A stretch of DNA of 63,877 nt, counting the filler, from Welwitschia mirabilis (lineage: Eukaryota): the NCBI GenBank assembly GCA_051453625.1. It is 6 parts of one record of this genome, joined end to end, with 100 filler letters (N's around TTAATTAATTAA, not from the genome) between each part and the next. Parts side by side here need not be neighbours in the genome. Positions count along the whole stretch, not along the records: positions 1 to 25,982 come from JBOZIK010000001.1; 5 more parts are not named here. One strand, 5' to 3'. A model generated the notes under the pieces. That model saw nothing but the letters and a program-made list of their open reading frames with translations. It made no database searches and had not been told where the DNA came from. Below are positions 1 to 43,775 of the stretch, piece by piece. Within the stretch, counting starts at the first letter, position 1. The number at the start of each line of letters is the position of its first letter. The translations under genes and the position numbers were made by a program.

Positions 1-1820
1 TATGTTTTCTTTATAATAATTGTAGATCTTTAGTCACATTTTGGAATACATGATAGAAGATAAACACAATTCCGTAGAAACCAACAATGGCAATGGAGAC
101 ATGGGGTAATGACATATAGCAGTAGCATCAGAAGACATATGTTAGAGGCATGTGGAGGTGGCAGTGGAGACATGTGGCAATAGCACTAGTTGGTGAAGGA
201 ATCCGACTTTAAAGGCCAAATGTTGGACTCATCATGATAAAGATTCCACCTAATGCTATATGATGACCTTCACTAAATGCTACATGATAACCTCCACCAA
301 ACGCTACAAGATACCCTCCATCAAACTCTAAATGACAAAGATTTTACCTAATGCTACAAGATAGAATCTTATCTACATAATGCTAAATTGCAAAGATTTT
401 ACCTAATTTTACAAGATGAAATCCACCCACCTCATCTACCACTATAAGACAAAGGCTTCTAACCACCTCAATTGCATCCTCTTCTATAAAAGGGCCTTGA
501 GTTCACATTTGTAAAGATTCTTTAATTTACAAAGTGCAATAGACATCTTGGAAATGTTAGAAGTTAANNNNNNNNNNNNNNNNNNNNNNNNNNNNNNNNN
601 NNNNNNNNNNNNNNNNNNNNNNNNNNNNNNNNNNNNNNNNNNNNNNNNNNNNNNNNNNNNNNNNNNNNNNNNNNNNNNNNNNNNNNNNNNNNNNNNNNNN
701 NNNNNNNNNNNNNNNNNNNNNNNNNNNNNNNNNNNNNNNNNNNNNNNNNNNNNNNNNNNNNNNNNNNNNNNNNNNNNNNNNNNNNNNNNNNNNNNNNNNN
801 NNNNNNNNNNNNNNNNNNNNNNNNNNNNNNNNNNNNNNNNNNNNNNNNNNNNNNNNNNNNNNNNNNNNNNNNNNNNNNNNNNNNNNNNNNNNNNNNNNNN
901 NNNNNNNNNNNNNNNNNNNNNNNNNNNNNNNNNNNNNNNNNNNNNNNNNNNNNNNNNNNNNNNNNNNNNNNNNNNNNNNNNNNNNNNNNNNNNNNNNNNN
1001 NNNNNNNNNNTTTACCTAATGCTATAAGATATAATCTTATTTACATAATGCTAAATGACAAAGATTTTACCTAATTTTACAAGATGAAATCCACCCACCT
1101 CATCTACCACTACAAGACAAAGGCTTCTAACCACCTCAATCGCATCCTCTTCTATAAAAGGGCCTTGAGTTCACATTTGTAAAGATTCTTTGACTTACAA
1201 AGTGCAATAGACATCTTGGAAATGTTAGAAGTTAACATGGCCTTATAAGTATCTTTNNNNNNNNNNGAACTTGTTTTAAGCATAGTTTGAGGAGTCCATA
1301 CCATCATTATCTCATTCCCTTGACATAATTTGCTATTTTTGATTTAATAGCAAAGAAGTTATTCACTTTTAATTTCAAGTTGCAAATAGATTTGTGCTTG
1401 TTATAGTTAAGTAAAAACTATATTATCAAGTTACATTATGAACTAAGTGAATTCTACAAGTTAGGTGGTTTAAGTTGGGTTAATACTAACATAATATTAT
1501 TCATCATGTAAGGATTGGTGAATTCAATAGTCACTTGGTAGTTTAAGTGATGTTTCAAGAAAGTGCAAGATATTATTGGAGTGAAAAGTTGCTATAAGAC
1601 AAATTGGGCTAAAACCTTGAAAGACATTCACTTCCCTACCTCTCTAATTGAAGTTTCATCACAACCCTCAACTCTAAATTTTCCCTTTCCTTGAATTGTA
1701 ATTGCAAGTTAAAAAAATCTATGTAATTTCTATTAAGACACTATAATTATCCCCATGGAAGAATGATACTAAGTATTCACCTAGTTTATTTTTGTTTAAC
1801 TATACTACTTAACAAACTTA
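1..1820 (+). repeat. Probable gypsy-type LTR fragment with an internal ~21-bp tandem repeat
   Basis: Degenerate tandem units like ccacctaatgctacaagat (about 245-430), TATA-like ctataaaagg (485, 1152), and an LTR-end-like tail (ccccatggaagaatgatac...tatactacttaaca) near 1750-1815. 340-567 is duplicated at 1011-1235 across the gap. Confidence 0.4.
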
Positions 1821-4399
1821 TATGAGAATGACAAATAGTAATACTTATATAAGAGTATGTAAAGTGGTTATCTACTCTATACTTGATTTAGAGGCATATA
1901 AGCTTTAGGATTTATAACTTATTTATTTAATACATTCATAAATAAGCTATAGGCTTGAATCAAAACACAAGAAAGGAAGCTACTATAATAATATTTGATT
2001 GAATTAGTTGTTACAAGGAAACAGATACTATACGTAATTTTTTTAGTAGAAAAGGCAAAAGGTAATTCTATTTTTGTTACTCCCAAGAAAAAAATGATTT
2101 ACCACATGCTACATCTTTGATCAATCATGAAGTGTAAGTTAAAATTACATTTCTGTGTCAATGAATGATTTTCTACGTATTGTTGTTCCATATGTTGATG
2201 TGGCCGATCCTTGATAACATTGCACTAACTAGTTCATATGGTATTAGGTAAATTTGAAATAACACATGATAACCCCCTACCTAGAATCAACCAAATCCAA
2301 ATTCCAACCCCTTCACCAAACTGCTCCCCCAACCCTTCTTCCCTCCAACCCACCCCAAACCTCCACCCCACTAATAGGAAGTACATATTATCAATATAAT
2401 AACTAACAATAAAATGAGATTTAGGTTACATCCATCCAACAACATCGATTAAATTATTCTAAGCATAATTGTAAACATTCAAACTACTAACATTAACATT
2501 GTTCATAAAAATCATATGAGATTTAGGTATATCTAAATCACAAAAACTTTGAAAACTCAAAGAAACATACCTAACAACTAGGTCCACTTGAATATTTAGA
2601 GCTCTTTTAAGAAATTATTGCAAATGTTAGTGTCTTACTTGATGATGTTATAAAATCTAGAAGATTTACAAGCAATACATCCTCAAGATTACTAAAAGAT
2701 GATAAATAATAAGGCCTTGAAATCTTTTTTAAAACATCTTACATAGAGGAAGAAAATATTGAAGTTAGCCTTTTCACTTAATAAATAGATGACTTAGCCT
2801 TTTCACTTAGTAGCATGCTGAAGAAAGGGTTTGAACCCCATGCCTTCAATCAACTAATTAACCATAACCCAAAACATTCAAGTCATTTTCAAGAGGAGAC
2901 ACAATAGGATTACTAGGTCTATCATTACCATCATCTTCAACTTTTAAGTAACTTGCATATCATCAAAGTATTTCAAAGAAGGATGTACATGCATGCAAGA
3001 AGATTCACCCTCTTGAGCCTTAGAGTATTGTCCATCAATGACATTAGATTTCCTTGTTCTTTCTTTTGAATTCTTTCATGCTTAACATCCATATTTTGTT
3101 TGGCTTCAAATTTGGAGATAGATCTTTTTAAATCATTATCATATTTATTATAAAAATAAAGTTTGAAAATCTTCTTACTGTTAAAATACTCTATCAATTC
3201 CTATTTTGTTTTTCATGCTAATCTAAATCACCCACAGACTAAGAACTTTTACTCTAGTACCATTTATTTGAAGAGCATAAATGCAAGCCCAAAATGGCTT
3301 TGATTAATATATGTGATTGGTTCAAATTATTTTTAGTTCATCAACAAAAAGTCATAGATGACAGTTTAAGAAATAATTAGAATAAGAATGTTCTATCTTA
3401 TTAACATAAGTATAAAATATCTAGAACATGATGCAATAGGTTAAAAATATTAGTTATTTTTATTATATTCTATACATATCCTAACACCTTATAGAAATTC
3501 AATAGCAATTCACCTAATGGTTATAATATTAGTTAATAAATTTGGGGAAAAAAGAAAGAATCAGTAAACAATCTGCTTTCTATGTAGAAGGAGGGTAAAG
3601 AAATNNNNNNNNNNNNNNNNNNNNNNNNNNNNNNNNNNNNNNNNNNNNNNNNNNNNNNNNNNNNNNNNNNNNNNNNNNNNNNNNNNNNNNNNNNNNNNNN
3701 NNNNNNNNNNNNNNNNNNNNNNNNNNNNNNNNNNNNNNNNNNNNNNNNNNNNNNNNNNNNNNNNNNNNNNNNNNNNNNNNNNNNNNNNNNNNNNNNNNNN
3801 NNNNNNNNNNNNNNNNNNNNNNNNNNNNNNNNNNNNNNNNNNNNNNNNNNNNNNNNNNNNNNNNNNNNNNNNNNNNNNNNNNNNNNNNNNNNNNNNNNNN
3901 NNNNNNNNNNNNNNNNNNNNNNNNNNNNNNNNNNNNNNNNNNNNNNNNNNNNNNNNNNNNNNNNNNNNNNNNNNNNNNNNNNNNNNNNNNNNNNNNNNNN
4001 NNNAGAAATTTATTATTTAGTAATATATCACACAAGAGATATGAGTACAAAGGTATTAACAAATAGTAGTAATAGATTTAAAGAGACTTCGATGAATTAA
4101 AAGAAGTCATATAAATGAAGAGCTATTAGATTAATTAGGAAATTTTATTGGATTTCAATTATAATTTTTTTAAAGCATATTATTCTAGAAGAAAAGCATA
4201 TCAATTATGAGATAAATTCAAAACTAGAATTACTTCTTGTAATACACATGATACTAATTATTATTTTACAATAGGGAATGAGTAAAGAAGTTGTTTCATT
4301 TTATAAACATCTAGATTTAACATATTCTAGTAATTACAAATGGAAGGTTAGACAAATTACTAAGATTGCCTACAGTTAACCTAGTATATTTCTTAATAA

Positions 4400-8403: not shown

Positions 8404-8989
8404 AAGATTACACACACATTTTAGGTAAGCTAATTCATTTATGTTTTTAAGATATGATAAATTTCATGTCTTCATTATTTAGAAAAGTATTTAATAACCA
8501 TATATATTATTTAATTTTTAAAATACACTCAAAGTTTTTATAGTTCCTCATAAACTACGTTTACCTTAAGTCTTTATCAGCGTAGTTCATATTTNNNNNN
8601 NNNNNNNNNNNNNNNNNNNNNNNNNNNNNNNNNNNNNNNNNNNNNNNNNNNNNNNNNNNNNNNNNNNNNNNNNNNNNNNNNNNNNNNNNNNNNNTTTATC
8701 TTAAGTCTTTATTAGCATAGTTCATATTTCTCGTAATATTTTTCATCTTGAAAACATAATACTATAATTTTTTAAATTTGATCTTTAAACTTTTAAATGT
8801 TATGTACTTAACCTTTTTCAAAAAACTATGGACTTTATCTCTAAAGAGACATCCTAAGGGTGAATCAATGCCCCTATAACCTTCTTCTTTAAGGCAAATT
8901 ATCTAAGAAATTTTAACCTCTTAAACTTTTATTATTTTTACTTAGTAGCTAATTTACCTTTTTTAAAAGAAAGGAAAATATATTAAACT

Positions 8990-9365
8990 AGGAAATTTAC
9001 ATGGATGGGGTGAAGATGCCCTAGCGTGATGGAAATAAGTAAATCGTTGACAAAAAAGAGAATATTCTATAGTAAACACAAAGATGGACTGAAAATAGGA
9101 CAAAATTGACGGTGCAAGCACCCCTAGGAAGGAGAACTAGCAAATACTAAACCTAAGCTAGGAAAATAACCAAAAAGGAATAGAGGATTTACATGGGGGG
9201 ATGAGATCGCCCTATCTTAATAAGGAAGTGTAAATTGCTTAACAAAAAGGAGAATATTTTGTAGAATACGCAGAGACGGACTATAAATAGAGCAAAATTA
9301 GGGGCAAAAGGATCCCTTGGAAGAAGAACTAACAAAAAATAGAACTAAACTAGGCAAGTAACCTG
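8990..9365 (-). repeat. Diverged tandem duplication (about 190 bp units) in the LINE 3'UTR
   Basis: about 8990-9171 (ggaaatttacatggatgggg...ctaggaaaataacc) aligns by eye with about 9185-9363 (ggatttacatgggggg...ctaggcaagtaacc); no gap between them. Confidence 0.7.
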
Positions 9366-9441
9366 AGAGGATTAAGGAATAGTATCTCCAACAAAAGGGG
9401 AAGAGGTTGCCATGATTATGCTCTAGCAAGAAACATCCCAT

Positions 9442-9600
9442 TTCGTTTGATAGCACCTCAAAAGCTTGATTAACCTCCTTAAACTCTTTAGCTCCTGCTT
9501 GATTCTTGTCTAAGTGCAGTTTAAGTGCTTTCTTCTGGTATCTTGACTTAATTACTTGTGGTAGAGCTTTATGAAAGATTCCCAAGGTCATAAATGGGTA
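9442..9600 (-). pseudogene. DnaJ/Hsp40 J-domain inside the 3' part of the LINE
   Basis: YPFMTLGIFHKALPQVIKSRYQKKALKLHLDKNQAGAKEFKEVNQAFEVLSNE fits the J-domain pattern (Y..LG......IK..Y...A...HPDKN......F..VN.A.EVLS). HPD reads HLD; the Leu codon TTA (9513-9511) is two C>T transitions from Pro CCA. Confidence 0.9.
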
Positions 9601-11039
9601 TCTTTTCAGCCCATGAATTGTGACGAGCATAACCTCCCTTTTTGTAGTGTCCATGTTAATGTCTTCCTTAGAATCATGCTACCTTTCTTTTAATGTAGAA
9701 TCCATGGTTGACTCTTGGGTGGGACTGGGACTACTCTCAGGCCTGGTCTCGTTNNNNNNNNNNTGCTTCCTTTGGTCCCGGGGCTTAGTTTAAGAATTCT
9801 CTTGAGCTATCTCTTTGTGCATAGGGATGAATTCGGCTTATCTGTCTGAGGTTCTGGGGATGAAGTTATCCTTCTTTGAGAGCTAGGGCTTACTTGTTCA
9901 ACATTTCCCTCAGAATAAGAGGCTTCATCTGTAGTGACCTTCCTCTTTGATTTTCTCTTAAGAGGGGTCTTCTGAGGGCGTTACCAAGGGGGAGGAGGGA
10001 CCTCTCGCATCCTCATCTTACTAGTTTCCCTCTAAAGGGCCAAAATTAATCCTAAGTACCTTGCAGTGTCTTNNNNNNNNNNNNNNNNNNNNNNNNNNNN
10101 NNNNNNNNNNNNNNNNNNNNNNNNNNNNNNNNNNNNNNNNNNNNNNNNNNNNNNNNNNNNNNNNNNNNNNNNTCATGGAATTGCTTCCTTTGTTCCTGGG
10201 GCTTAGTTTAAGAATTCTCCTGAGCTATTTCTTTGTGCATAAGGGATGAATTCGGCTTATTTGTCTGAGGTTCTGGGGATGGAGTTATTCTTCTTTGAGA
10301 GCTAGAGCTTACCTGTTCAACATTTCCCTCAGAATAAGAGCCTTCATCTGTAGTGACCTTCCTCTTTGATTTTCTCTTAAGAGGGGTCTTCTGAGGGTGT
10401 TACCGAGGGGGAGGAGGGACCTCTCGCATCCTGATCTTACTAGTTTCCCTCTAAAGGGCCAAAATTAATCCTAAGTACCTTGCAGTGTCTTTACACCGTA
10501 ATGCCTGAATGAAGAAGAAGGTTAGGTTAGTCTAGTGCCCTAGGTCTAGTGCTTTAAGAAATGTAAAGCACAGGCTTGATAGTTTTGAGTAGCAACCAGA
10601 CTGAACAAAATATTTGTCTATCATTTCAGCACCCAATCCCCATGGAGGCAGAAGCATCTTGTGGCTGATGTATTTACTAGGCAGCTTAGCAACAATACTA
10701 AGAAAAAAGTAGAGCACCTCTTGTTATACTTTGCTTCCAAGAAGAATTCTTTTACTGGTATCTAGGATTTCCAAGAGTTTAAAAAGAGAGTCTTTCGTGA
10801 TTTTGATGGAGATTCTCTTGAAAGTTATTCATTGCCCTCTCCATCTTCTATAGAATGGGGTAATATCAGTACCTGGTTCTCTCTTGAGCTTATGCAGGAG
10901 GACTCCCCACCCTATGACTTGTACCTTGTCCCACGACTCAGGGCATCCTTTAAACAGACTAGGAGCAGATGGTTCTATAGTAGGAGTTGCTCCTATAGCT
11001 GTTCTAATTTGTGAGTGATAATGTTTGATTCTCTTAGCA

Positions 11040-14000
11040 ATATTTATTGGGAATGGGAGGGGTGTTATTAAAAATCAAATCATTTCTTATACACCAAATC
11101 TACAAATAATTCAATCGAATCCCATCATTCTTGCATGCATCAAATGCGTTGCATAACTTATGGTAACTCTTCATAATTGTCATTAATTCATCATTCCACT
11201 TACATTAATGAAAAGGTGCTTAGCATCTTCAAGATAAGACTAGCAAATTGGACAAGTAGATTAGACTTGAAAACCCCTCTTATGTAGCTGGTCTCTTATG
11301 AGGGTTTTGTTATGATTCCTCAACCAGAAAAATATTTTGATTTTATCTAGGATTTGACCTTCTAGAATTTCTTAGAAGTATCCTCTTTTTCATGTCTTTT
11401 GAAAAGGATCTATTTGGTTGTGTCTTTGTTGCATATGCTTAAGTCTATCAGATTTCTCCTAGTTCTGCTAAGGTGTTTTCTCAAATAAGATTCTCCCTTG
11501 ACAGTGTTTCAATTAGGGTACTTATAATTGACCAAATCACTCCACGACCACCCTCCCTTGGAAATCTTTTTAAGGATCCAGTGAGCTCATGTGAGGAGAT
11601 AGTCCTCTAGCCTCTGGATACCCTAGCCTCCAAACTCCTTAGGATGAGCTATTATCTCCCATTTTTAGAGATGGATGCAATTTTGATCTTTGCCTCCCAA
11701 CCAGATAACCTTCAGAATTTTGTTAATTTTTTGAATGATGTTCTTTAGGGAGACGATAACGGAAGCTATGTATCTAAAATAAAAGATTAGACAAGAGTTT
11801 GCTAGGATAATCTTTACTTTGAAAGAGAGGAAGTTATTTTGCTAGGAATTGCATCATCTGTGAATAGATTCAAGAATGTAGTTTTAAGTAAGGGTTTTTT
11901 GCCAATTCCGTAAAGGGATTCCCAACTAGATATCTTGAAGATCTCCCATTTTGGGGTTCAATATTCTAGCGATTTCGCCCGCTTTGACACTATATTTACC
12001 CAAAGTATGAATTCTAGATTTACTCTAGTTGATATAGAGATCTGTAGCTTTTACAAAAAGATTCATGGAATTCTTAATGGCTCTTGCTTACTAACACAAG
12101 GCTTTAGTCATGATGATTGTATCACTTGCATAATCATTATTAATAAATGTTTGACCTCCTGTCTTGACACTAGATACTCCACTACTTTTTAAAAAGCCTT
12201 GTAAGACGTTCATGACAAATAGAAAAAGATATGGAAATAAGGGGTTTTCTTATTTGAATCCTCAGCTAGCTGAGAAAAATTTGGATTTGTGGTTGTTAAC
12301 TTTTACACTGAATTTAGCTGAAGCTTACATGTCTAACTATAGGTTGATGATGTATTGGTGAAATCCAATTTTTCTTAGAACACGATCTATAGCTTATCAA
12401 GTTATAGAATCATAAGCTTTTGCTGTCTCTAATTTAGCAATACGAAGGGGAAATTTACGCTTTTTAACAGGATGTATAATTTCATGAGTCAAGAAAATTT
12501 GGTCTTGAATATACTTGGATTAGATGAAGCCAACTTGGTTCTCAGAGATCACCATGANNNNNNNNNNNNNNNNNNNNNNNNNNNNNNNNNNNNNNNNNNN
12601 NNNNNNNNNNNNNNNNNNNNNNNNNNNNNNNNNNNNNNNNNNNNNNNNNNNNNNNNNGCTAAGAAAAATTTGGATTTGTGGTTGTTAACTTTTACACTGA
12701 ATTTAGCTGAAGCTTGCATGTCTACCTAGAGGTTGATGATGTATTGGTGAAATCCAATTTTTCTTAGAACACGATCTACATCTTATCAAGTTATAGAATC
12801 ATAAGCTTTTGCTATCTCTAATTTAGCAATACGAAGGGGAAATTTACGCTTTTTAACAGGATGTATAATTTCATGAGTCAAGAAAACTTGGTCTTAAATA
12901 TACTTGGATTAGAGAAANNNNNNNNNNNNNNNNNNNNNNNNNNNNNNNNNNNNNNNNNNNNNNNNNNNNNNNNNNNNNNNNNNNNNNNNNNNNNNNNNNN
13001 NNNNCAAATACCTAAAGGTCTGAAGTCTTTCAGTTTATTGGCATCCTGTTTCTTGGGAATAAGAGTAATCTTGGTTCTATTCATTTCCCTAGGGATGCAT
13101 TTATTGTGAAGAATATCCTACATGACATCTTATAGGTTCTTCTCCAAAATAGAGAAGTAAGATTTGAAAAGTTTGAGTGACCATCTGTCTGGTCCTAGAG
13201 CTATGTTATTATTCATTGACCTCACTGCTAATTGAACGTCTTCTCTACCCAGAGGTTTAGTAAGGTGGGCATTATNNNNNNNNNNNNNNNNNNNNNNNNN
13301 NNNNNNNNNNNNNNNNNNNNNNNNNNNNNNNNNNNNNNNNNNNNNNNNNNNNNNNNNNNNNNNNNNNNNNNNNNNNNNNNNNNNNNNNNNNNNNNNNNNN
13401 NNNNNNNNNNNNNNNNNNNNNNNNNNNNNNNNNNNNNNNNNNNNNNNNNNNNNNNNNNNNNNNNNNNNNNNNNNNNNNNNNNNNNNNNNNNNNNNNNNNN
13501 NNNNNNNNNNNNNNNNNNNNNNNNNNNNNNNNNNNNNNNNNNNNNNNNNNNNNNNNNNNNNNNNNNNNNNNNNNNNNNNNNNNNNNNNNNNNNNNNNNNN
13601 NNNNNNNNNNNNNNNNNNNNNNNNNNNNNNNNNNNNNNNNNNNNNNNNNNNNNNNNNNNNNNNNNNNNNNNNNNNNNNNNNNNNNNNNNNNNNNNNNNNN
13701 NNNNNNNNNNNNNNNNNNNNNNNNNNNNNNNNNNNNNNNNNNNNNNNNNNNNNNNNNNNNNNNNNNNNNNNNNNNNNNNNNNNNNNNNNNNNNNNNNNNN
13801 NNNNNNNNNNNNNNNNNNNNNNNNNNNNNNNNNNNNNNNNNNNNNNNNNNNNNNCGCTTGCTGGAAGAAAAACTTGGTGTGTTTATCCCCCTGCTTAAGC
13901 CACTTAATTCTTTAATGTTCTCTCCAGTAGTTTTTCTCATCTTCATTTATCTCTTGAAGTTCTATAAGACATTGATATTCCCTGTTACAGAAGCTGTCTT

Positions 14001-14860
14001 GGTCTTCTTCCTCTTCTTGCTTAGTTTGGATGCTCTAAATACCTTCCTCTAATTCCTTTTTGGATTTAAATCTTTCTTTGTTTTTCCTCCTCCAGTCCTT
14101 TATAAGAGCTTTTAAGGTGTTTAGGCCTCTATAGAAAAATGTTAATGGATGAGTACTGTCATACTGGCTTTGAATTTTTTCTATTAGAGTTCTAGTTTCT
14201 GTCATTATAATCTAGTAACGTTCCATTCGAAATGAAGTCCTCTAGGATGTTATTGCCTTGATTTTGTATTTGATTGGATGGTGTTCTAAAGTTATTTTAT
14301 TCAGCCCACAAGCTTTGATTAGGATCTTTGCTATGTCCTTTCCAGAAAAAATTTTGTTAATTCCGACATTATCAGATTGTTTTCTATCCTTCTATTGGAC
14401 TAGGTGTATTTACACCTAGCAAGTGGAATATCTAAAAGGGCATTTTCCCTCAACAGTGTAGGAATTAATTAAAACCCCTTACTATAAGCTACTTGGATTT
14501 GTCTATCATAATCCACTACAATTCCCCTAATGTGGAAGCTTTATTTTAATTATTTTGAGAGCTATAGATGTTTAGTTATAGTCCAATCTTCTTCCTTAAG
14601 AAAAATAGTTAAGTGGTTCTTACTACTGTTAACTAATTCTACCTCCTTATTTTTGAGAATCATGAGGCCTCTTGAATTTCCTTAAGCTGTAGAGGTAAAA
14701 ATGTTCCACTACTGCTCTAGATTCTCTAGTTCCATACCATTTCGCCTTTTTGTTTCTTGTAAACAAACTAATTTAATATTAAATTAACTGATAAGATTTT
14801 TTTGGGTCTTTTTCTTGTAGGAGGACCCTAATCCCCTATAATTCTAAGAGAGACAATCTA
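11040..14860 (-). pseudogene. L1 ORF2 core: APE endonuclease, reverse transcriptase, C-terminal CCHC (zf-RVT)
   Basis: Endonuclease: IVS*NYRGLG...LVCLQETK, GNSRGLMI. RT: NKAPGPD-like NIALGPDRW, MNRTKITLIPKKQDANKLKDFRPLGI, AKLEIAKAYDSI, GFK*ENPLFPYLF. C-terminal: STCPIC*SYLEDAKHLF (about 11210-11260) and IWCIRNDLIFNN (about 11065-11100). Confidence 0.87.
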
Positions 14861-15691
14861 TTAGGTTTGTTTTTGCCCCTTTCTAGGAGCTTGACCTTTT
14901 TTAAGAGTATCTTGGATNNNNNNNNNNNNNNNNNNNNNNNNNNNNNNNNNNNNNNNNNNNNNNNNNNNNNNNNNNNNNNNNNNNNNNNNNNNNNNNNNNN
15001 NNNNNNNNNNNNNNNNNNNNNNNNNNNNNNNNNNNNNNNNNNNNNNNNNNNNNNNNNNNNNNNNNNNNNNNNNNNNNNNNNNNNNNNNNNNNNNNNNNNN
15101 NNNNNNNNNNNNNNNNNNNNNNNNNNNNNNNNNNNNNNNNNNNNNNNNNNNNNNNNNNNNNNNNNNNNNNNNNNNNNNNNNNNNNNNNNNNNNNNNNNNN
15201 NNNNNNNNNNNNNNNNNNNNNNNNNNNNNNNNNNNNNNNNNNNNNNNNNNNNNNNNNNNNNNNNNNNNNNNNNNNNNNNNNNNNNNNNNNNNNNNNNNNN
15301 NNNNNNNNNNAGAGAGACAATCTATTAGGTTTGTTTTTGCCCCTTTCTGGGAGCTTGACCTTTTTTCAGAGTATCTTCGATGGTCGCTTGAAAACTATTA
15401 GCCACATTCTTTGTAGTTTTCCTTTCTTGGAGGGTTTTGTTGCTAGGCCTTCCTCTCATTTAAAGTTCCACGTCATTCAACTCTTCTGCGTTTAATGGAT
15501 TTTGGGGTTGTTGAGTATTCTCTTCCTCCATAGGTGATTGGAAGGAGNNNNNNNNNNNNNNNNNNNNNNNNNNNNNNNNNNNNNNNNNNNNNNNNNNNNN
15601 NNNNNNNNNNNNNNNNNNNNNNNNNNNNNNNNNNNNNNNNNNNNNNNCCTTCCTCTCATTTAAAGTTCCACGTCAGTCAACTCTTCTGCGT

Positions 15692-17237
15692 TTAATGGAT
15701 TTTGGGGTTGTTGAGTATTCTCTTCTTCCATAGGTGATTGGAAGGAGCTGTACTCTCTCTCCTTTTCTTCTTTTCCTTGTTTTCCTTGGTTTTCTTAGGA
15801 AAGACCATAGTGCTCTTCACCATTTTTTTCTTCTTCTGTTTATGCCGACAATTGCTCTGATTGTGCTCAATTTTTCTATAGAAAGAGCAAGTTTCTTTTT
15901 GTTTTCCTTCAATGTCAATAAGCCTTTTTCTNNNNNNNNNNNNNNNNNNNNNNNNNNNNNNNNNNNNNNNNNNNNNNNNNNNNNNNNNNNNNNNNNNNNN
16001 NNNNNNNNNNNNNNNNNNNNNNNNNNNNNNNCTTTTTCTATATTTTTCCATCACATGACCCATTCTCCCATAATGGAAACATCTTTTTTTCTGTAGAAAT
16101 GCATCTCTTTGAGATGTTTCTTGATTTCCCACAAATTTTACATAGAACCAGGAGGTTCTCATAGGTAACTTCAAGGTCACATATGCCCCATTTGGATATG
16201 GACTTTACTGATTGTATCTCATTTGTATCTTCTAAGCTCATCCAAATGCAAAATCTAGTGAGGACTAGCTTTGTCTACTTAATGGTTATTTTATCAAGTT
16301 TTATTAGTTCACCAAATTGAGATGCGATTTTCCTCAGAAGATCTTCGTCATAAAACTCTAGAGGAAACTTGTGAATCCGGATTCATATTGGTAGTTTCCT
16401 AAATAAGTTTGGGTCTGATTGCGTCCTCGACATTCNNNNNNNNNNNNNNNNNNNNNNNNNNNNNNNNNNNNNNNNNNNNNNNNNNNNNNNNNNNNNNNNN
16501 NNNNNNNNNNNNNNNNNNNNNNNNNNNNNNNNNNNNNNNNNNNNNNNNNNNNNNNNNNNNNNNNNNNNNNNNNNNNNNNNNNNNNNNNNNNNNNNNNNNN
16601 NNNNNNNNNNNNNNNNNNNNNNNNNNNNNNNNNNNNNNNNNNNNNNNNNNNNNNNNNNNNNNNNNNNNNNNNNNNNNNNNNNNNNNNNNNNNNNNNNNNN
16701 NNNNNNNNNNNNNNNNNNNNNNNNNNNNNNNNNNNNNNNNNNNNNNNNNNNNNNNNNNNNNNNNNNNNNNNNNNNNNNNNNNNNNNNNNNNNNNNNNNNN
16801 NNNNNNNNNNNNNNNNNNNNNNNNNNNNNNNNNNNNNNNNNNNNNNNNNNNNNNNNNNNNNNNNNNNNNNNNNNNNNNNNNNNNNNNNNNNNNNNNNNNN
16901 NNNNNNNNNNNNNNNNNNNNNNNNNNNNNNNNNNNNNNNNNNNNNNNNNNNNNNNNNNNNNNNNNNNNNNNNNNNNNNNNNNNNNNNNNNNNNNNNNNNN
17001 NNNNNNNNNNNNNNNNNNNNNNNNNNNNNNNNNNNNNNNNNNNNNNNNNNNNNNNNNNNNNNNNNNCTCTATCTCCAAACATGCACCTTTGTCAATATCT
17101 AAGATTAGAGTTTTTTCTTCCTTGGAGAAATGGGTCTTCTCCATTTTGAGGAACAAGCCACTCTTTAAACCCTAAATCAAATCAATGTAGAAGTAACAGC
17201 GAAGTTCCGCAACTTACTTGAGGTGTGTTTTTCTCAT
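15692..17237 (-). pseudogene. L1 ORF1 (DUF4283-like region + several CCHC zinc knuckles), disrupted
   Basis: RIHKFPLEFYDEDLLRKIASQFGELIKLD (plant L1 ORF1 WxR.xxLP.E...IG...G motif), LEVTYENLLVLCKICGKSRNISKRC (zf-CCHC_4-like), further knuckles CFHYGRMGHVMEKY and CSFYRKIEHNQSNC; stops, frameshifts and gaps. Confidence 0.8.
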
Positions 17238-17415
17238 GGCCGATACCGCCTATGCACGTTGTAGCTTTTTGAAACCGAAACCGCCCTCACTAATCCAAAG
17301 TCTTCCGAACCCTAACTCCCTTCTGTGCTCCAACCCTTCCAAAATCCTCAAATTCAATTTGCCACTGTGCATTGCTTTTAATAAAAGCAGTTGTTGAAGG
17401 TAGCTAGTCTACCTT

Positions 17416-17759
17416 GAATACTAATATCCTAAATTTTTTTCTTTTACTGAAGTTTAAAGATCCGACACTCTCATCATTTAAATATAAGTAATACGTAAAA
17501 ACTTAATACGTAAAAACTATGTCCAGTATAGTAAAGCCTTTGCGTATTTGTTTCACATACTTTTCGATAGACCGTTGCTGTGTATGAATATTTATCGATG
17601 ATTTCTTTTATCATGTGCTATCCCGTTACACCATCTATCGTAGAATTCGGACAAGGATAGCGCTTCGGAGAAGCTTTTTAAAGAGCAGACAATAATTACA
17701 GACCGGAATGAGACCGGAATGAGATAAGGATAGTGGAGCACAATAAACTGGGCAAGTCT
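17416..17759 (+). promoter_or_regulatory. Short pTAC3 proximal promoter/5'UTR between the LINE 5' end and the ATG
   Basis: CpG-retaining stretch; perfect tandem TAATACGTAAAAACT x2 (17489-17518, ACGT A-box core), AGACCGGAATG x2 (17700-17721), GATAAG I-box-like motif (17723-17728). Motif function is inference. Confidence 0.45.
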
Positions 17760-18206
17760 ATGGCGAATTCCTTCTGCTGCTGCCATGATGGCATTGGGAA
17801 TTCCGTTTCGCTATTGCTGCCCAACACCAGAAGCAGCAGAAGTAGGAATTTCGTCTTCAAAGTAAAATCCAATTTAGAAAACGGGCAAGCCTCAACTGCA
17901 AATGGCACTACAACGACAGTGAGAAGAAGCAGCACAAAAAGAAACGGACAAGTATTGTCTAAGTTTGTTCCTTCTCCTTATGAAGATGAGCCAGAGACGG
18001 TGAAGCCCCTGCCGAAACTTAAAGGCATCGAAGGAAACCTCAGAAGCAAAATCATGGAGGACCTTATGAAGTGTGCCGTTGAGGGTGATTACAGGGGTGC
18101 CATCGACTGTTTCCATGATTTGACTGCTGCAGGCCTCATGCCCGGCCCTCGTTCGTTCCATGGCCTCGTTGTTGCTCACACACTCGCTTTCGACGTTCAA
18201 GGCGCG
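17760..18206 (+). CDS. PTAC3: pTAC3/PAP1-like plastid RNA polymerase-associated protein, exon 1 (transit peptide + first PPR-like helices)
   Basis: ATG at 17760 gives a Ser/Arg/Thr-rich transit-peptide-like N-terminus (MANSF...), then LRSKIMEDLMKCAVEGDYRGAIDCFHDLTAAGLMPGPRSFHGLVVAHTLAFDVQGA. This matches the pTAC3 block as I recall it (LRLTFMDELM...DMIAAGLSPGPRSFHGLVVAHALNGDEQGA). GT donor at 18207 (GGCGCG|gtacat), phase 0; 447 nt. Confidence 0.9.
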
Positions 18207-18581
18207 GTACATTATCCTCCTCTTCCTCCTCTTCCTTCTTCTTCTTTATCATCAGAGTCACTTCTATTCTTAAATTCGTAACCAACTTTGATAGCAGTGA
18301 AGTCTTACAACTATGTTTCAAAGGGACATGTAACTTGAAATCATTGATAGCCTATAACGAGGCTTGTGGGAGAGTGCTACATTGTAAGAAATTTTCAGTT
18401 GCACGAAATAAAAACGCCTTGTTCAGCGAATTCAGCGAATGGCTGTACCTTCCACAATAAAACCTGAAGGACCTTCAGGTAGTTTTCTTATATTGTTCCA
18501 CAACATCCGTTCAAATTGACTTTGATGAATGCCATTGTCTTTGGATTGCAGCTTCTATTTGACGCCAATTTAAGGTGTCGC

Positions 18582-23800: not shown

Positions 23801-25982
23801 TCCCTTAGAAAAATGAAGCGCTCTTCATTCAGAGCCTTAGCCATGATATCTGCAAGTTGGTGATTAGTGTCAGTATATTCTAACTCAACAATGCCATTTT
23901 GTACCTGATCTCTGATGAAATGATGTCGGATATCAATATGTTTTATGCGAGAGTNNNNNNNNNNNNNNNNNNNNNNNNNNNNNNNNNNNNNNNNNNNNNN
24001 NNNNNNNNNNNNNNNNNNNNNNNNNNNNNNNNNNNNNNNNNNNNNNNNNNNNNNNNNNNNNNNNNNNNNNNNNNNNNNNNNNNNNNNNNNNNNNNNNNNN
24101 NNNNNNNNNNNNNNNNNNNNNNNNNNNNNNNNNNNNNNNNNNNNNNNNNNNNNNNNNNNNNNNNNNNNNNNNNNNNNNNNNNNNNNNNNNNNNNNNNNNN
24201 NNNNNNNNNNNNNNNNNNNNNNNNNNNNNNNNNNNNNNNNNNNNNNNNNNNNNNNNNNNNNNNNNNNNNNNNNNNNNNNNNNNNNNNNNNNNNNNNNNNN
24301 NNNNNNNNNNNNNNNNNNNNNNNNNNNNNNNNNNNNNNNNNNNNNNNNNNNNNNNNNNNNNNNNNNNNNNNNNNNNNNNNNNNNNNNNNNNNNNNNNNNN
24401 NNNNNNNNNNNNNNNNNNNNNNNNNNNNNNNNNNNNNNNNNNNNNNNNNNNNNNNNNNNNNNNNNNNNNNNNNNNNNNNNNNNNNNNNNNNNNNNNNNNN
24501 NNNNNNNNNNNNNNNNNNNNNNNNNNNNNNNNNNNNNNNNNNNNNNNNNNNNNNNNNNNNNNNNNNNNNNNNNNNNNNNNNNNNNNNNNNNNNNNNNNNN
24601 NNNNNNNNNNNNNNNNNNNNNNNNNNNNNNNNNNNNNNNNNNNNNNNNNNNNNNNNNNNNNNNNNNNNNNNNNNNNNNNNNNNNNNNNNNNNNNNNNNNN
24701 NNNNNNNNNNNNNNNNNNNNNNNNNNNNNNNNNNNNNNNNNNNNNNNNNNNNNNNNNNNNNNNNNNNNNNNNNNNNNNNNNNNNNNNNNNNNNNNNNNNN
24801 NNNNNNNNNNNNNNNNNNNNNNNNNNNNNNNNNNNNNNNNNNNNTACATATACTTCTTTAATTATAAAACCATTCTAGAAGGCACTCTTCGCATCCATTT
24901 GAAACAATTTGATTTTATGAAAACATGCAAAAGCCAATAACATGTGAATTGTTTCTAACCTGGCAACTGGAGCAAAAGTTTTACCATAATCTACACCTTT
25001 GTGTTGACTGTAACCTTGAGCAACCAGCTTTGCCTTATTCTGAATAATGTTGTGATTCTCGTCCTTTTTGATTTTGAAAACCTATTTTGTTCCAATAATG
25101 TGCTTCCCTTGTCAAGGAGAAACTAGGTTCCACACTTTGTTCCTCTCGAATTGATGAAGCTCATATTGCATGGCTAACATTTATGTCTCATCCTTTTCTG
25201 CCTCTTGAAAATTTTTAGGTTCTAAAGAAGAAAGAAAACATAGAAAGCTTGGACTAATATACTTACCACTTCTTATTGTAGTCCCTTGATTTGGATTACT
25301 TACTACCACCTCCATTGGATGATCACGTTTGGTTCTTTGCAGTAGAGAGTGAAAAGATTGACTTACTTCTGAAGATTGAATTGGAATTGTAGAAGGAAAT
25401 TCTGTCTCAAGAGATGAAGCATCATGACCACTCAATGAAACATCTGGAATAGAATCTACATCATTATTTGCGTTTAACCTGTTAGAACATACATCCAAAT
25501 CATCTATCTTAATATGAGCAGATTCCTCAATCTTGCCTAAGGATTTGTTGAAAACTCTATAGGCCTTGCTTGTTGAAGAATAACCAAGAAAAATTCCTTT
25601 GTTTGATTTTGAATCAAATTTATTTAAAGGACCTTTATCTTTAAGGATTCCACACTTGCTATCAAAAACTTTAAAGTAACTTACAATTGGACGCTTTCCA
25701 TACTAGAGTTCATANNNNNNNNNNATTTTCTTTATACCTGGTCGAAGAAATACTCTGTTGGAAATGTAGTAAGCCATGTTTACTGCTTCAGCCCAAAAAT
25801 GATGTGGTAGAGATTGTTCATTCAACATAGTTTGAGCCATTTCAATTAAAACTCTATTCTTCCTTTCTACAACACCATTTTGTTGTGGTGTTTCAGGAGC
25901 TGAAAATTGATGTCCAATACCGTTAGAATTACAAAACTCTTCAAATCTATTATTATCAAACTCACCTCCTCTGTCTGTTTGG
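20895..25982 (-). mobile_element. Sirevirus-like Ty1/copia element (3'LTR, PPT, env-like ORF, RNaseH, RT, integrase)
   Basis: LTR end tgttagg...agaggggggtgaatag; GGACGTCC repeat array; PPT ctccccttttcaatgatgaca (21910-21931); env-like ORF 22628-23360; RNase[16 protein letters not shown]...[24 protein letters not shown]...FAPVARLETI; integrase SAPETPQQNGVVERKNR. Confidence 0.9.
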
Positions 25983-42800: not shown

Positions 42801-43775
42801 TCCTTTCAAATTGATTTACTTTTTTTGTAGGACCATCATCTAGGCCTTATCATGTTCTGCCTCTTGAACGGTGTTGAGTTCTAACTTAGGAACGAAACAT
42901 AGAAAACTATGATTGATGTGCTTTTTGCTTCTTGTGGTTGTACCTTGGATTGGATTACTGACAACAATAGTTTCTGAATGATCTCTTCTTGTTCTGAGAG
43001 GGAGAGATGAACATCTATTTGTGCATTTCTCTTCGCTGTTGGAAGAGGATGGTTGGTTATCTGATCTAGCTTCTTCTTTAGTGGTTTCTATAATGCCTTC
43101 TTCTTCATTATCTCTTCTATGTTGTTTGGGAGGTTCTTGAGCACTCTCTTCTACTCTAACATGGGCTGACTCCTCTGCTCTGTTGGAGGCTTTGTTAAAA
43201 AGTCTGTAAGCTTTACTAGTTGAAGAGTATCCCAGAAAAATTCTTTCATTTGTTTTGGAATCAAACTTTCCTACAAGATGTTCATCTTTAAGAATACAAC
43301 ACTTACTCTCAAACACTTTAAAGTAATTCACTAGAGGTTTCTTGCCTTTCTAGAGCTCATAAGTGGTTCTTTTAGTATTAGGCCTAAGAAAAACTCACCT
43401 GCAGATATAGCAGGTAATATTAATTGCTTTAGCCCAAGGCTGTTGAGGCAAGGATTGTTAATTTAGCATAGTCCTAACCATTTCAATTAAAAGACGATTT
43501 TTACGTTCAACAACTGCATTTTGTTGAGGAGTTCTAGGGACTGAGAATTGATGATCTATTCCATGAGAGTCACAAAAGTTTTCAAACTTTTCATTGTCAA
43601 ATTCTCCTCCTCTATCAGAACATATAGATTTAATGTTATGCTCCTTTTCATTCTGGACCTTTTTGCCTATTTTCGGAACATGTCAGAAGTTTCATCCTTG
43701 CTAGTTAGAAAAGCTAACCAAGTAAATCTTGAAAAATCATGAACGACAACTAAGAAATCCCTTTTTTCTTCTTAT
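36831..43775 (-). mobile_element. Sirevirus-like copia element(s): 3'LTR, PPTs, env-like ORF, RNaseH, RT, integrase
   Basis: LTR with GGACGTCC array (37410-37690); PPT at about 37807; env-like ORF 38430-39500 and 40262-40825; RNaseH GYCDADWTSCLDNRKSTSG...SLSTAEVEY; RT YQMDVKSAFLNGYI, QIYVDDIAFG; integrase PRTPQQNAVVERKNR, IFLGYS. Confidence 0.9.

What the first reader, a model, noticed from the sequence alone, without database searches (positions are those of the whole stretch)
8945..17415. L1 LINE whose ORF2 ends in a DnaJ/Hsp40 J-domain (retrotransposon carrying its own Hsp70 co-chaperone module)
Seen: a clear J-domain (9442-9600) lies on the same strand as, and inside, a full-length L1 bounded by a 16-bp TSD (8945-8960/17400-17415), upstream of the 3'UTR and poly(A) remnant. 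From about 10860 the frame runs through ...FIQALRCKDTARYLGLILAL*RETSK...PPPP...KRKSKRK...SSPSPTQESTMDSTLKER*HDSKEDINMDTTK... into the J-domain, once the gap-flank duplicate (9764-10072/10173-10492) is collapsed. The 10-N gap preserves frame, and the interrupting stops are TAG/TAA, explainable as CAG/CAA C>T decay. Two or three single-base frameshifts link this frame to the zf-RVT/IWxxRN region. The HLD motif is two C>T changes from HPD. Established: J-domains stimulate Hsp70 ATPase through HPD; Hsp70/Hsp40 activate hepadnaviral RT; polyomavirus T antigen carries its own J-domain; plant L1 ORF2 normally ends at zf-RVT or RNase H. Inference: the ancestral ORF2 was APE-RT-CCHC-(RNaseH-like)-linker-J and recruited Hsp70 for ORF2 folding or RNP remodelling. 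I know of no described LINE family with this architecture.
Basis: partly seen in the sequence, partly recalled or inferred. Interest (0 to 1): 0.9.

Follow-up and report, generated by a model that had tools for sequence, protein, structure and literature searches.

The report
Plant L1 family carrying a J-domain
A dead plant LINE (L1) copy carries a real Hsp40-type J-domain near its 3' end, and sequencing reads show that hundreds of related copies carry it too, so a whole retrotransposon family seems to have kept a chaperone-recruiting module, though probably as a small gene of its own and not as the tail of its reverse transcriptase.

Summary
A decayed full-length L1 lies on the minus strand (17399 to 8960) with ORF1 DUF4283, RVT_1 and zf-RVT, bounded by a 13/15 target-site duplication. 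A genuine J-domain (Pfam DnaJ, E 2e-10; HLD in place of HPD) lies 0.5 kb from its 3' end.

It is not a one-off capture. In contigs of three DNA runs (two species labels), about 100 distinct contigs cover each J-domain position. 55 and 39 contigs (X1, X5) leave the element at the same 3' end (8959/8960) into unrelated flanks.

Diverged copies keep the J frame: 16 of 29 differences are at third codon positions. One set of 13 contigs reads H-P where the window has H-L.

The ORF2-J fusion is not shown:
- No RNase H is detectable, and ORF2 homology stops at zf-RVT (11198).
- A stop right after the PPPP motif is shared by both window copies (TAA) and a diverged subfamily (TGA).
- The one linker stretch I could compare with a diverged copy shows no codon-position bias.
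- A Kozak-context ATG (9654) conserved in two lineages opens an intact 118-codon J ORF.

J, linker ORF and zf-RVT are nevertheless in one frame, so read-through is not excluded.

Best reading: an L1 family with a selected 3' J-domain cistron. This would be a new variant of a known kind. No whole genome was available.

The parts
8945..8959 (.). Left target-site duplication (partner at 17400-17414).
   Evidence: 13/15 identical; 6 of 500 shuffles reach this. Family contigs leave the element exactly here: 55 (X1) and 39 (X5) loose ends at 8959 with unrelated AT-rich flanks.
8960..8965 (-). Poly(A) remnant at the element's 3' end.
   Evidence: The only A run of 6 or more on the minus strand between 11200 and 8940; one search places it at 8964-8959, so it overlaps the last TSD base.
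8966..9297 (-). 3' UTR with a diverged tandem duplication (8967-9187 against 9155-9378, 71%) and a well-kept terminal 40 nt.
   Evidence: Joints in other copies skip 227-328 nt here, so they have one unit fewer.
9298..9654 (-). Intact 118-codon ORF, from an ATG in aacATGG context to the stop. It encodes the J-domain.
   Evidence: 0 stops in 90 codons in this frame over 9654-9385, against 5 and 8 in the other two frames. The coverage peak at 9385-9742 lies over this ORF.
9442..9591 (-). J-domain (helices I-III with the H-L-D loop).
   Evidence: Pfam DnaJ E 2e-10; PDB J-domains; AF2 pLDDT about 90 and J-domains at the top of the Foldseek list.
9511..9513 (-). Leu codon TTA of H-L-D, at the position of Pro in HPD.
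   Evidence: Most laid contigs have C at the first codon base (9513 A>G, 88 contigs in X1). A set of 13 contigs in X5 reads CC here, which gives Pro (hand translation).
9655..9753 (-). Stretch before the J ORF. It holds a first ATG (9705-9703, aaccATGG) and an in-frame TAG (9681-9679).
   Evidence: E-D-I-x-M-D-T is kept in a diverged subfamily, while the three codons upstream of it are all replaced (hand translation).
9754..9763 (.). Placeholder gap (10 N).
   Evidence: A 285-letter X1 contig over 9695-9969 shows 10 more letters than the window. The family's loose-end consensus behind 9742 runs into the first 9 bases of contig 10173-12557.
9764..10072 (-). 309-bp contig (A2) that duplicates 10182-10491. 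It holds the linker ORF (PPPP, KRKSKRK, S/P-rich).
   Evidence: 95.5% identity; translation.
9981..9983 (-). In-frame TAA directly after PPPP(W). The same codon is 10400-10402 in contig B.
   Evidence: X350. A diverged subfamily (13 contigs, X6) has TGA at this codon (hand alignment).
10173..11197 (-). About 340 codons after zf-RVT in the ORF2 frame, with no recognisable domain.
   Evidence: Stops: 12/340 in this frame against 29/342 and 24/340 (binomial 0.006). No RNase H.
11204..11380 (-). zf-RVT.
   Evidence: PF13966, E 1.4e-10. tblastn homology with plant L1 ORF2 ends at 11198.
11452..12555 (-). Reverse transcriptase, decayed (18 stops in 368 codons).
   Evidence: PF00078, E 1.9e-8; 13 plant L1 ORF2 hits at 23-27% identity.
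13007..14861 (-). N-terminal RT part and the stretch between ORF1 and RT where APE should lie, broken by gaps.
   Evidence: tblastn with plant L1 ORF2s. Pfam found no Exo_endo_phos.
15692..16433 (-). ORF1: DUF4283 followed by zinc-knuckle-like CX2CX4HX4C stretches.
   Evidence: PF14111, E 1e-7; translation.
17400..17414 (.). Right target-site duplication. The element's 5' end is at 17399.

Best explanation
The window holds an old, dead, full-length copy of a plant L1-clade LINE. In this family the 3' region carries a J-domain coding module of the ordinary DnaJ A/B type. The module was probably captured once from a host DnaJ gene by a master element (inference). It then spread with the family's 3' end to hundreds of copies in two related species. 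Over that time it stayed under purifying selection, with HPD intact in at least one lineage.

The module lies downstream of a stop codon that diverged copies share. It begins with a conserved ATG in a good initiation context. I therefore read it as a small third cistron encoding a J-protein of roughly 100 residues. It would be translated from the L1 RNA by re-initiation, or possibly by read-through, since it is in the ORF2 frame.

Its likely job (inference) is to switch on Hsp70 at the L1 RNP or ORF2 protein, for folding, RNP remodelling or nuclear entry. The window's own copy has H-L-D and its L1 genes are broken, so it is inactive.
For: SHOWN
1. J-domain.
2. L1 identity and one insertion unit: DUF4283, RVT_1 and zf-RVT; tblastn; target-site duplication 13/15, reached by 6 of 500 shuffles; no internal poly(A).
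3. Family level:
   - Contigs laid at 80% identity or more on 8695-10072: 2252 (X1), 2057 (X5), 639 (X6).
   - Summed depth in X1 is 854-3041 over 9385-9706, against 3.6-40.6 in the flank 8695-8924.
   - At 9445, 105, 108 and 44 contigs (X1, X5, X6) carry the other letter.
   - 55 and 39 contigs end at 8959 with unrelated flanks.
   - Joints tie the 3'-terminal 40 nt to the stretch just 3' of the J ORF in other copies.
   - The loose-end consensus behind 9742 (22, 20 and 13 contigs) runs on into the linker contig.
4. Constraint:
   - Of the 7 shown positions in 9440-9700 where most contigs differ from the window, 5 are synonymous in the J frame, against 1 and 1 in the other frames and 2-10 of 25 in the 3' UTR.
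   - I translated by hand three 30-nt loose-end consensuses from diverged copies. Over 30 codons, 29 differences fall 7/6/16 by codon position (third-position excess, P 0.013), and 19 of 30 residues are unchanged.
   - One of them reads Y-R-K-K-V-L-R-L-H-P where the window has Y-Q-K-K-A-L-K-L-H-L.
5. Separate cistron:
   - A shared stop after PPPP(R/W): TAA in A2 and B, TGA in 13 X6 contigs.
   - A linker consensus from 20 X6 contigs shows no third-position excess (3 of 8).
   - ATG 9654 with A at -3 and G at +4 is present in the window and in the diverged consensus.
   - The 118-codon ORF is intact, although the ORF2 frame has 4-5% stops (Fisher 0.019).

BACKGROUND
Human L1 ORF2p co-purifies with HSPA8, HSPA1A and HSP90 (PMC5821459, Table 1, passages seen).
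Against: - No whole genome was held, so I could not show that other copies join the J module to an RT. That link rests on this one scaffolded locus and its imperfect target-site duplication.
- The element is assembled from short contigs, and gap-flank duplicates at 95-98% mean that pieces of two alleles or copies are mixed.
- The selection evidence is thin. It rests on 40 of 472 variant rows and 18 of about 1534 loose-end rows that the tool chose to print. The loose ends are places where the aligner gave up. The translations were done by hand.
- The contigs with H-P could in principle come from host DnaJ paralogues.
- Depth sums all contigs and is not a copy number.
- Most copies appear to have Leu (CTA). 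Copies with Pro are clipped by the aligner at this site, so the ratio is unknown.
- The J frame equals the ORF2 frame, and that frame is stop-poor right through the linker. This fits a fusion or read-through at least as well as a separate cistron.
- No annotated protein anywhere resembles this J ORF beyond the generic J-domain: best 49.9 bits among 1.84 billion representatives.
Confidence: 0.45

Rival explanations
1. One reading: the ancestral ORF2 ran without a stop from RT and zf-RVT through a long linker into the J-domain, making one APE-RT-zf-linker-J polyprotein. A variant of this model has the J extension made by programmed read-through of the ORF2 stop.
For: - zf-RVT, the linker ORF and the J ORF are in one frame across about 2.1 kb (1 in 9 by chance).
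- That frame has the fewest stops in every segment from 11449 to 10173: 12 of 65 stops after zf-RVT, P 0.006; 6 of 39 over 10850-10173, P 0.010.
- After the shared stop it is still open for 63 codons.
- Precedent: insect R1 LINEs carry an extra C-terminal helicase domain in ORF2, after a spacer of more than 300 residues (PMC4686597, passages).
- The in-frame TAGs lie at CAG (CHG) sites, which decay quickly in methylated plant DNA (my knowledge).
Against: - The stop after PPPP(R/W) is shared by A2, B and a diverged subfamily with a different stop codon.
- The family's loose-end consensus has a further in-frame TAG between linker and J (hand reading).
- The linker shows no codon-position bias (3 of 8).
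- No RNase H or any other domain is detectable in the 340 codons after zf-RVT.
- None of 13 related plant L1 ORF2 proteins carries DnaJ.
Confidence: 0.2
2. Passenger: a host DnaJ gene fragment or retrocopy was picked up by 3' transduction or template switching into the 3' UTR of one successful master element. It has been copied along ever since with no function for the element.
For: - LINE 3' regions often carry transduced host sequence (my knowledge).
- This copy and most laid contigs have Leu, not Pro, at the key motif.
- No RNA holder was found. The one RNA run laid gave 9 reads, all under 90% alike.
- GC is higher in linker and J (0.39-0.44) than in RT and zf-RVT (0.32-0.38), which would fit a foreign origin.
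Against: - The third-position and synonymous excess is specific to the J frame.
- Residues are kept at about 33% nucleotide divergence.
- The initiation context is conserved.
- The J core is the best-covered part of the 3' 1.4 kb, while the UTR beside it is the least covered.
- The ORF is intact in an otherwise ruined copy.
Confidence: 0.25
3. Artefact or coincidence: the J-bearing repeat is a separate poly(A) retroposon, non-autonomous or of another family. It only appears joined to this L1 because the draft scaffold strings together contigs of different repeats.
For: - There are 11 N-gaps in the element, and four gap-flank duplicates at 95-98%.
- The join between the J contig and the linker is a gap in the window.
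- The J region is far more abundant than single-copy DNA, and I could not measure the abundance of the RT.
Against: - One contiguous contig (10173-12557) runs from RT through zf-RVT into the linker.
- An independent X1 contig bridges the linker and the J contig across the gap, and the family consensus does the same.
- The two ends of the 8.4-kb unit share a target-site duplication, and the left one abuts the family's 3' end.
- There is no poly(A) between ORF2 and J.
Confidence: 0.1

Closest known systems
Plant L1 LINEs with an added Archaea-like RNase H domain at the ORF2 C-terminus (Smyshlyaev et al. 2013). I did not read that paper; I saw it only as cited in passages of PMC4686597 and PMC5203782.
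   Same: Plant L1 clade with DUF4283 ORF1 and RT plus zf-RVT, and a foreign protein module added 3' of zf-RVT and kept by a whole family.
   Different: The module here is a J-domain, not RNase H, and RNase H itself was not detectable. It seems to lie behind a stop and not inside ORF2.
Insect R1 LINEs with a tobamovirus-like SF1 helicase domain at the ORF2 C-terminus (PMC4686597; abstract and passages seen).
   Same: A LINE family that gained an extra domain at the 3' end of its coding region, separated from the LINE-specific part by a spacer of more than 300 residues with no known similarity.
   Different: A different clade, host and domain. There the domain is in an open ORF2. Here no open fusion is seen.
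Orchid Ty3/gypsy elements with an acquired m6A demethylase domain (PMC9289625; search listing and start of the abstract only).
   Same: A plant retrotransposon family that fixed a host-type accessory domain which may help its own replication.
   Different: An LTR element, not a LINE, and a different domain.
J-domains of DnaJ A/B co-chaperones (dnj-12, DNAJA1, Sis1, Hdj1), and the J-domain of polyomavirus large T antigen (recalled, not tested).
   Same: The same fold and helix II/III sequence pattern. As in T antigen, a mobile genetic parasite would bring its own Hsp70 activator.
   Different: The window copy has HLD, so by the accepted rule it cannot activate Hsp70. There is no G/F, zinc-finger or client-binding part. 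Activity is untested.
LINE 3' transduction of host sequence (recalled).
   Same: The likely way the module was acquired.
   Different: A transduction marks one copy or a small lineage and decays neutrally. This module is in hundreds of copies of two species labels and shows coding constraint.

Membership tests
L1-clade plant LINE | Reverse transcriptase of the LINE type (RVT_1), most similar to plant L1 ORF2. | tested here: met
   PF00078, E 1.9e-8. 13 hits, all RVT_1-bearing; the 8 hits that carry a source name are from plants; 23-27% identity.
L1-clade plant LINE | zf-RVT (CCHC-type) region after the RT. | tested here: met
   PF13966, E 1.4e-10.
L1-clade plant LINE | APE endonuclease at the ORF2 N-terminus. 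| tested here: inconclusive
   tblastn with plant ORF2s matches 14861-14748 and 14406-13867, in the stretch between ORF1 and RT where APE should lie. Pfam Exo_endo_phos was not found. The region is broken by gaps.
L1-clade plant LINE | ORF1 of the plant type (DUF4283 plus zinc knuckle). | tested here: met
   PF14111, E 1e-7. CX2CX4HX4C-like stretches.
L1-clade plant LINE | Poly(A) 3' end and target-site duplication. | tested here: met
   A6 remnant. TSD 13/15, reached by 6 of 500 shuffles. The family's 3' end is at 8959/8960.
RNase H-bearing plant L1 subgroup | RVT_3 / RNase H domain after zf-RVT. | tested here: not met
   No Pfam hit at E up to 1. BLASTP against P0082 and P0080 matches only zf-RVT. 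An HMM built from three plant L1 C-termini scores -2.3 bits.
J-domain protein (DnaJ/Hsp40) | J-domain fold and sequence profile. | tested here: met
J-domain protein (DnaJ/Hsp40) | HPD tripeptide between helices II and III. | tested here: not met
   The window has H-L-D. H-P is seen in 13 diverged contigs of run X5 (hand translation), so the family, though not this copy, may meet it.
J-domain protein (DnaJ/Hsp40) | Stimulates Hsp70 ATPase. | not testable with these tools
   Needs a biochemical assay.
LINE with an accessory domain fused to ORF2 | The domain is in the same uninterrupted ORF as the RT in the family. | tested here: inconclusive
   The frame is the same. However, there is a shared stop after PPPP(R/W) and further in-frame stops. 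Intact copies could not be fetched.
LINE with an accessory domain fused to ORF2 | The domain is present in many independent insertions. | tested here: met
   About 100 contigs per J position in X1 and X5. 55 and 39 different flanks at the same 3' end.

The most novel reading that the evidence does not exclude
A plant L1 family encodes its own J-domain co-chaperone, either as a third cistron or as a read-through tail of ORF2, and has kept it under selection. The element would use it to aim host Hsp70 at its own RNP. A bolder variant is that the small J-protein interferes with the J-protein arm of plant methylation-dependent silencing: the host J-domain protein SILENZIO is recruited by MBD5/6 and interacts with HSP70s (PMC8616336, passage seen). 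That would make it a transposon-borne anti-silencing factor.
Probability: 0.4. Interest if true: 0.8.

Novelty: new variant of a known kind. Interest (0 to 1): 0.62.

Why it matters
LINEs are thought to rely wholly on host chaperones; human ORF2p co-purifies with HSPA8, HSPA1A and HSP90 (PMC5821459, passages). A LINE family that carries and conserves its own Hsp70 activator would be direct genetic evidence that chaperone recruitment limits retrotransposition.

It would add a third kind of module, after RNase H in plant L1s and a helicase in insect R1, to the short list of domains LINEs have gained at their 3' end. It would also provide a natural system for asking how a downstream cistron is translated from LINE RNA.

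Five full-text searches found no LINE or other retrotransposon described with a DnaJ or J-domain. Repbase and Dfam could not be searched, and the supplementary domain tables of PMC5203782 could not be seen.

Tried and rejected
- Whole-genome search: no genome is held for this window.
- Word-index protein searches for longer relatives of the J ORF and of the zf-RVT-to-linker read-through: no hits.
- Exhaustive HMMER of the J ORF against 1.84 billion representatives: 76 hits, all generic J-domains at or below 49.9 bits, none covering the stretch before J.
- ESM Atlas: only generic J-domain clusters.
- Metagenome scans, with the protein (597 pattern matches, 0 confirmed) and with a 22-base exact pattern (0): nothing.
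- Earlier findings of this scan: nothing relevant.
- Other copies inside the window: none by blastn or tblastn.
- RNase H: rejected.
- Internal poly(A) or old 3' end between ORF2 and J: none.
- Host single-copy gene at this locus: rejected, because the region is highly repeated.
- RNA: no RNA holder was listed. The one RNA run laid gave 9 reads, all under 90% alike.
- A2 against B as a test of selection: most of their 14 differences change the residue, but they are alleles or very recent copies, so this says nothing about the family.
- I first read the variant table as showing that most copies have Leu at the motif. I withdrew that as a count, because copies with CC at 9513-9512 are clipped by the aligner at 9511 and never enter the table.

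Full report
WHAT IS AT THE LOCUS

The finding lies in a gappy draft scaffold. There are 11 runs of N between 8945 and 17415. Four gap-flank duplicates at 95-98% identity show that pieces of two alleles or copies were strung together.

On the minus strand, from 17399 down to 8960, lies a heavily decayed L1-clade LINE:
- ORF1 with DUF4283 (E 1e-7) and zinc-knuckle-like stretches.
- tblastn matches to plant L1 ORF2s in the stretch between ORF1 and RT, where APE should lie. Pfam itself finds no endonuclease.
- RVT_1 (E 1.9e-8).
- zf-RVT (E 1.4e-10).

The 13 nearest proteins found are RVT_1-bearing ORF2-like proteins at 23-27% identity; the 8 that carry a source name are from plants. None of them carries a DnaJ domain. 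The ends are flanked by GTAGCTA.T.TACCT, 13 of 15 identical, and 6 of 500 shuffles reach this. An A6 remnant is the only A-run on that strand between 11200 and 8940.

THE J-DOMAIN IS REAL

The longest open frame of the whole element (9298-9678, 126 codons) matches Pfam DnaJ at E 2e-10, above the curated cut-off. It also matches 33 solved J-domain chains, with dnj-12 and DNAJA1 best. With an alignment of 43 J-domain relatives it folds with pLDDT of about 90 over residues 20-75, and the Foldseek rows I read (top of the list) are J-domains or J-domain proteins, best E 4.7e-3. The key tripeptide is H-L-D. In 90% or more of the 43 relatives that column is Pro.

IS IT A ONE-OFF? NO

No genome is held for this window, so I used public reads. 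Contigs of three DNA runs from two species labels were laid on 8695-10072 at 80% identity or more:
- 2252, 2057 and 639 contigs were laid (X1, X5, X6). Most are under 90% alike: 1470, 1306 and 472.
- Summed depth in X1 is 3.6-40.6 in the flank (8695-8924) and 854-3041 over 9385-9706.
- At single J-domain positions, 44-108 distinct contigs are counted.
- 55 (X1) and 39 (X5) contigs leave the element at 8959, exactly at the target-site duplication, into AT-rich sequence that does not agree between contigs (agreement 0.45-0.46). This is the signature of many independent insertions sharing one 3' end.
- Joints show other copies in which the terminal 40 nt are linked to the stretch just 3' of the J ORF, with one UTR repeat unit fewer.

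The J-domain therefore belongs to a high-copy poly(A) retroposon 3' module. The 'one-off transduction' refutation fails.

IS THE MODULE JOINED TO THE L1?

In the window, the J contig (8695-9753) and the linker are separated by 10 N. Two results close the gap.
- A 285-letter X1 contig spans 9695-9969, which is 275 window positions.
- The loose-end consensus behind 9742 (22, 20 and 13 contigs) runs on for 30 letters, and its last nine match the first nine bases of contig 10173-12557 at 7 of 9 (my alignment).

That contig is one uninterrupted piece from RT through zf-RVT into the linker. Together with the target-site duplication and the absence of an internal poly(A), the order RT, zf-RVT, linker, J, UTR, poly(A) is well supported for this insertion. 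I could not test it in other copies, because the single read-laying run was used on the 3' 1.4 kb.

FRAME AND FUSION

With the true gap length, zf-RVT, the linker ORF and the J ORF are in one frame. That frame is stop-poor all the way:
- After zf-RVT (11198-10173): 12 stops in 340 codons, against 29 and 24 in the other two frames (binomial 0.006).
- Over 10850-10173: 6 of 39 stops fall in this frame (0.010).

Several results argue against a simple fusion:
- No RNase H or any other domain is detectable in those 340 codons. Homology to plant ORF2 ends at 11198.
- Directly after PPPP(R/W) there is a TAA in both window copies (X350). In a diverged subfamily (13 X6 contigs) the same codon reads TGA (hand alignment). 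A stop kept through a stop-to-stop change looks like a real terminator.
- The family consensus has another in-frame TAG between linker and J. The window also has one at 9681-9679.

All of these could be decay at methylated CAG or CGA sites, so read-through or an ancestral open frame is not excluded.

CONSTRAINT ON THE J ORF

The tool printed 40 of 472 variant rows. Seven of them lie in 9440-9700 at positions where most contigs differ from the window. Five of those seven are synonymous in the J frame, against one each in the other two frames, and against 2, 7 and 10 of 25 for the 3' UTR rows in the three frames.

I also translated by hand three printed loose-end consensuses from more diverged copies (13 contigs each):
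- V-L-F-D-E-M-G-Y-F-L against the window's V-L-S-N-E-M-G-C-F-L.
- Y-R-K-K-V-L-R-L-H-P against Y-Q-K-K-A-L-K-L-H-L.
- N-P-Q-E-D-I-D-M-D-T against D-S-K-E-D-I-N-M-D-T.

Over these 30 codons, 29 nucleotide differences fall 7, 6 and 16 by codon position (P 0.013), and 19 residues are unchanged. A linker consensus from 20 X6 contigs gives 3, 2 and 3, which shows no bias.

The second string shows Pro at the motif in a multi-copy lineage. Copies of that kind are clipped by the aligner at 9511, so the variant table cannot say how common Pro is. It shows only that the first codon base is C in most laid contigs (CTA where the window has TTA).

The third string shows that the ATG at 9654, with A at -3 and G at +4, and the codons around it are kept, while the three codons further upstream are all replaced.

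The J ORF from that ATG is intact (118 codons), in a copy whose ORF2 frame carries 4-5% stops (1 of 152 against 18 of 368, Fisher 0.019).

READING

The most economical account is as follows.
- A master L1 captured the J-domain of an ordinary DnaJ A/B-type host gene into its 3' region (inference).
- The module then became a conserved part of the family (shown at the level of reads).
- It is most likely translated as a small cistron of its own downstream of the ORF2 stop. Read-through fusion is the main alternative.
- What it does is inference: activating Hsp70 on the element's own protein or RNP. This is plausible because human ORF2p co-purifies with HSPA8, HSPA1A and HSP90 (PMC5821459, passages).
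- A bolder possibility is interference with J-protein-dependent silencing of methylated transposons in plants (SILENZIO with MBD5/6; PMC8616336, passage).

The window's copy itself is dead.

COMPARISON AND NOVELTY

LINEs are known to add modules at the 3' end of ORF2:
- RNase H in plant L1s (Smyshlyaev 2013, seen only as cited).
- An SF1 helicase after a spacer of more than 300 residues in insect R1 (PMC4686597).

Five full-text searches found no retrotransposon described with a J-domain. The main text of the 503-genome L1 survey (PMC5203782) does not contain 'DnaJ'. Its supplementary domain tables, Repbase and Dfam could not be consulted. I therefore rate this a new variant of a known kind.

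LIMITS

- The selection evidence rests on the rows one tool call chose to print and on hand translation.
- Depth is not copy number.
- The contigs with H-P were not shown to be transposon copies and not host paralogues.
- The link between J and RT rests on a single scaffolded locus.

Noticed in passing
window 12269-12524 / 12658-12913; 14847-14917 / 15311-15381; 15448-15547 / 15648-15747: Three more gap-flank duplicates inside the element at 96.5%, 95.8% and 98% identity. The scaffold appears to place allelic or paralogous contigs on both sides of gaps, so lengths and frames across gaps in this assembly are unreliable.
   Followed up: partly
window 8967-9187 / 9155-9378: The 3' UTR holds a diverged tandem duplication of about 220 bp (71%). 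Other family copies lack one unit (joints skipping 227-328 nt). The last 27 codons or so of the window's J ORF run into this repeat, so they are probably not part of the original coding sequence.
   Followed up: partly
window 9705-9682 and 9654-9631: Two similar starts 51 nt apart, M-D-S-T-L-K-E-R and M-D-T-T-K-R-E-V, both with ATGG and A at -3. This looks like a short duplication of the ORF's 5' end. The first is followed by the in-frame TAG.
   Followed up: no
window 8971-9016: The last 40 nt or so before the poly(A) are covered much more deeply (1477 and 1879 in X1 and X5) than the UTR beside them (49-242). This could be a conserved 3' recognition element for the reverse transcriptase.
   Followed up: no
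window 41560-43349, 45653-46063, 25184-25702: Ty1/copia-type fragments: RVT_2 (E 5e-30 and 3e-27) and the SH3-like integrase-end domain (E about 1e-18, found twice).
   Followed up: partly
window 52810-53384 (minus strand): A second, unrelated LINE RT fragment, found by tblastn with P0090 and P0091. Pfam finds nothing in the single read-through frame I tried. No J-domain lies near it.
   Followed up: partly
window 17712-18278 (plus strand): An open frame of 189 codons begins 300 bp beyond the L1's 5' end. It has no Pfam match. It may be the first exon of a host gene, which would put the L1 just upstream of it.
   Followed up: no
window 9300-10650 against 10950-12450: GC is 0.39-0.44 in windows free of N over J, linker and the stretch before the linker, but 0.32-0.38 over most of RT and zf-RVT (0.41 in the window 11400-11699), all within one insertion. 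Either the 3' part has a different origin or it has decayed less.
   Followed up: no
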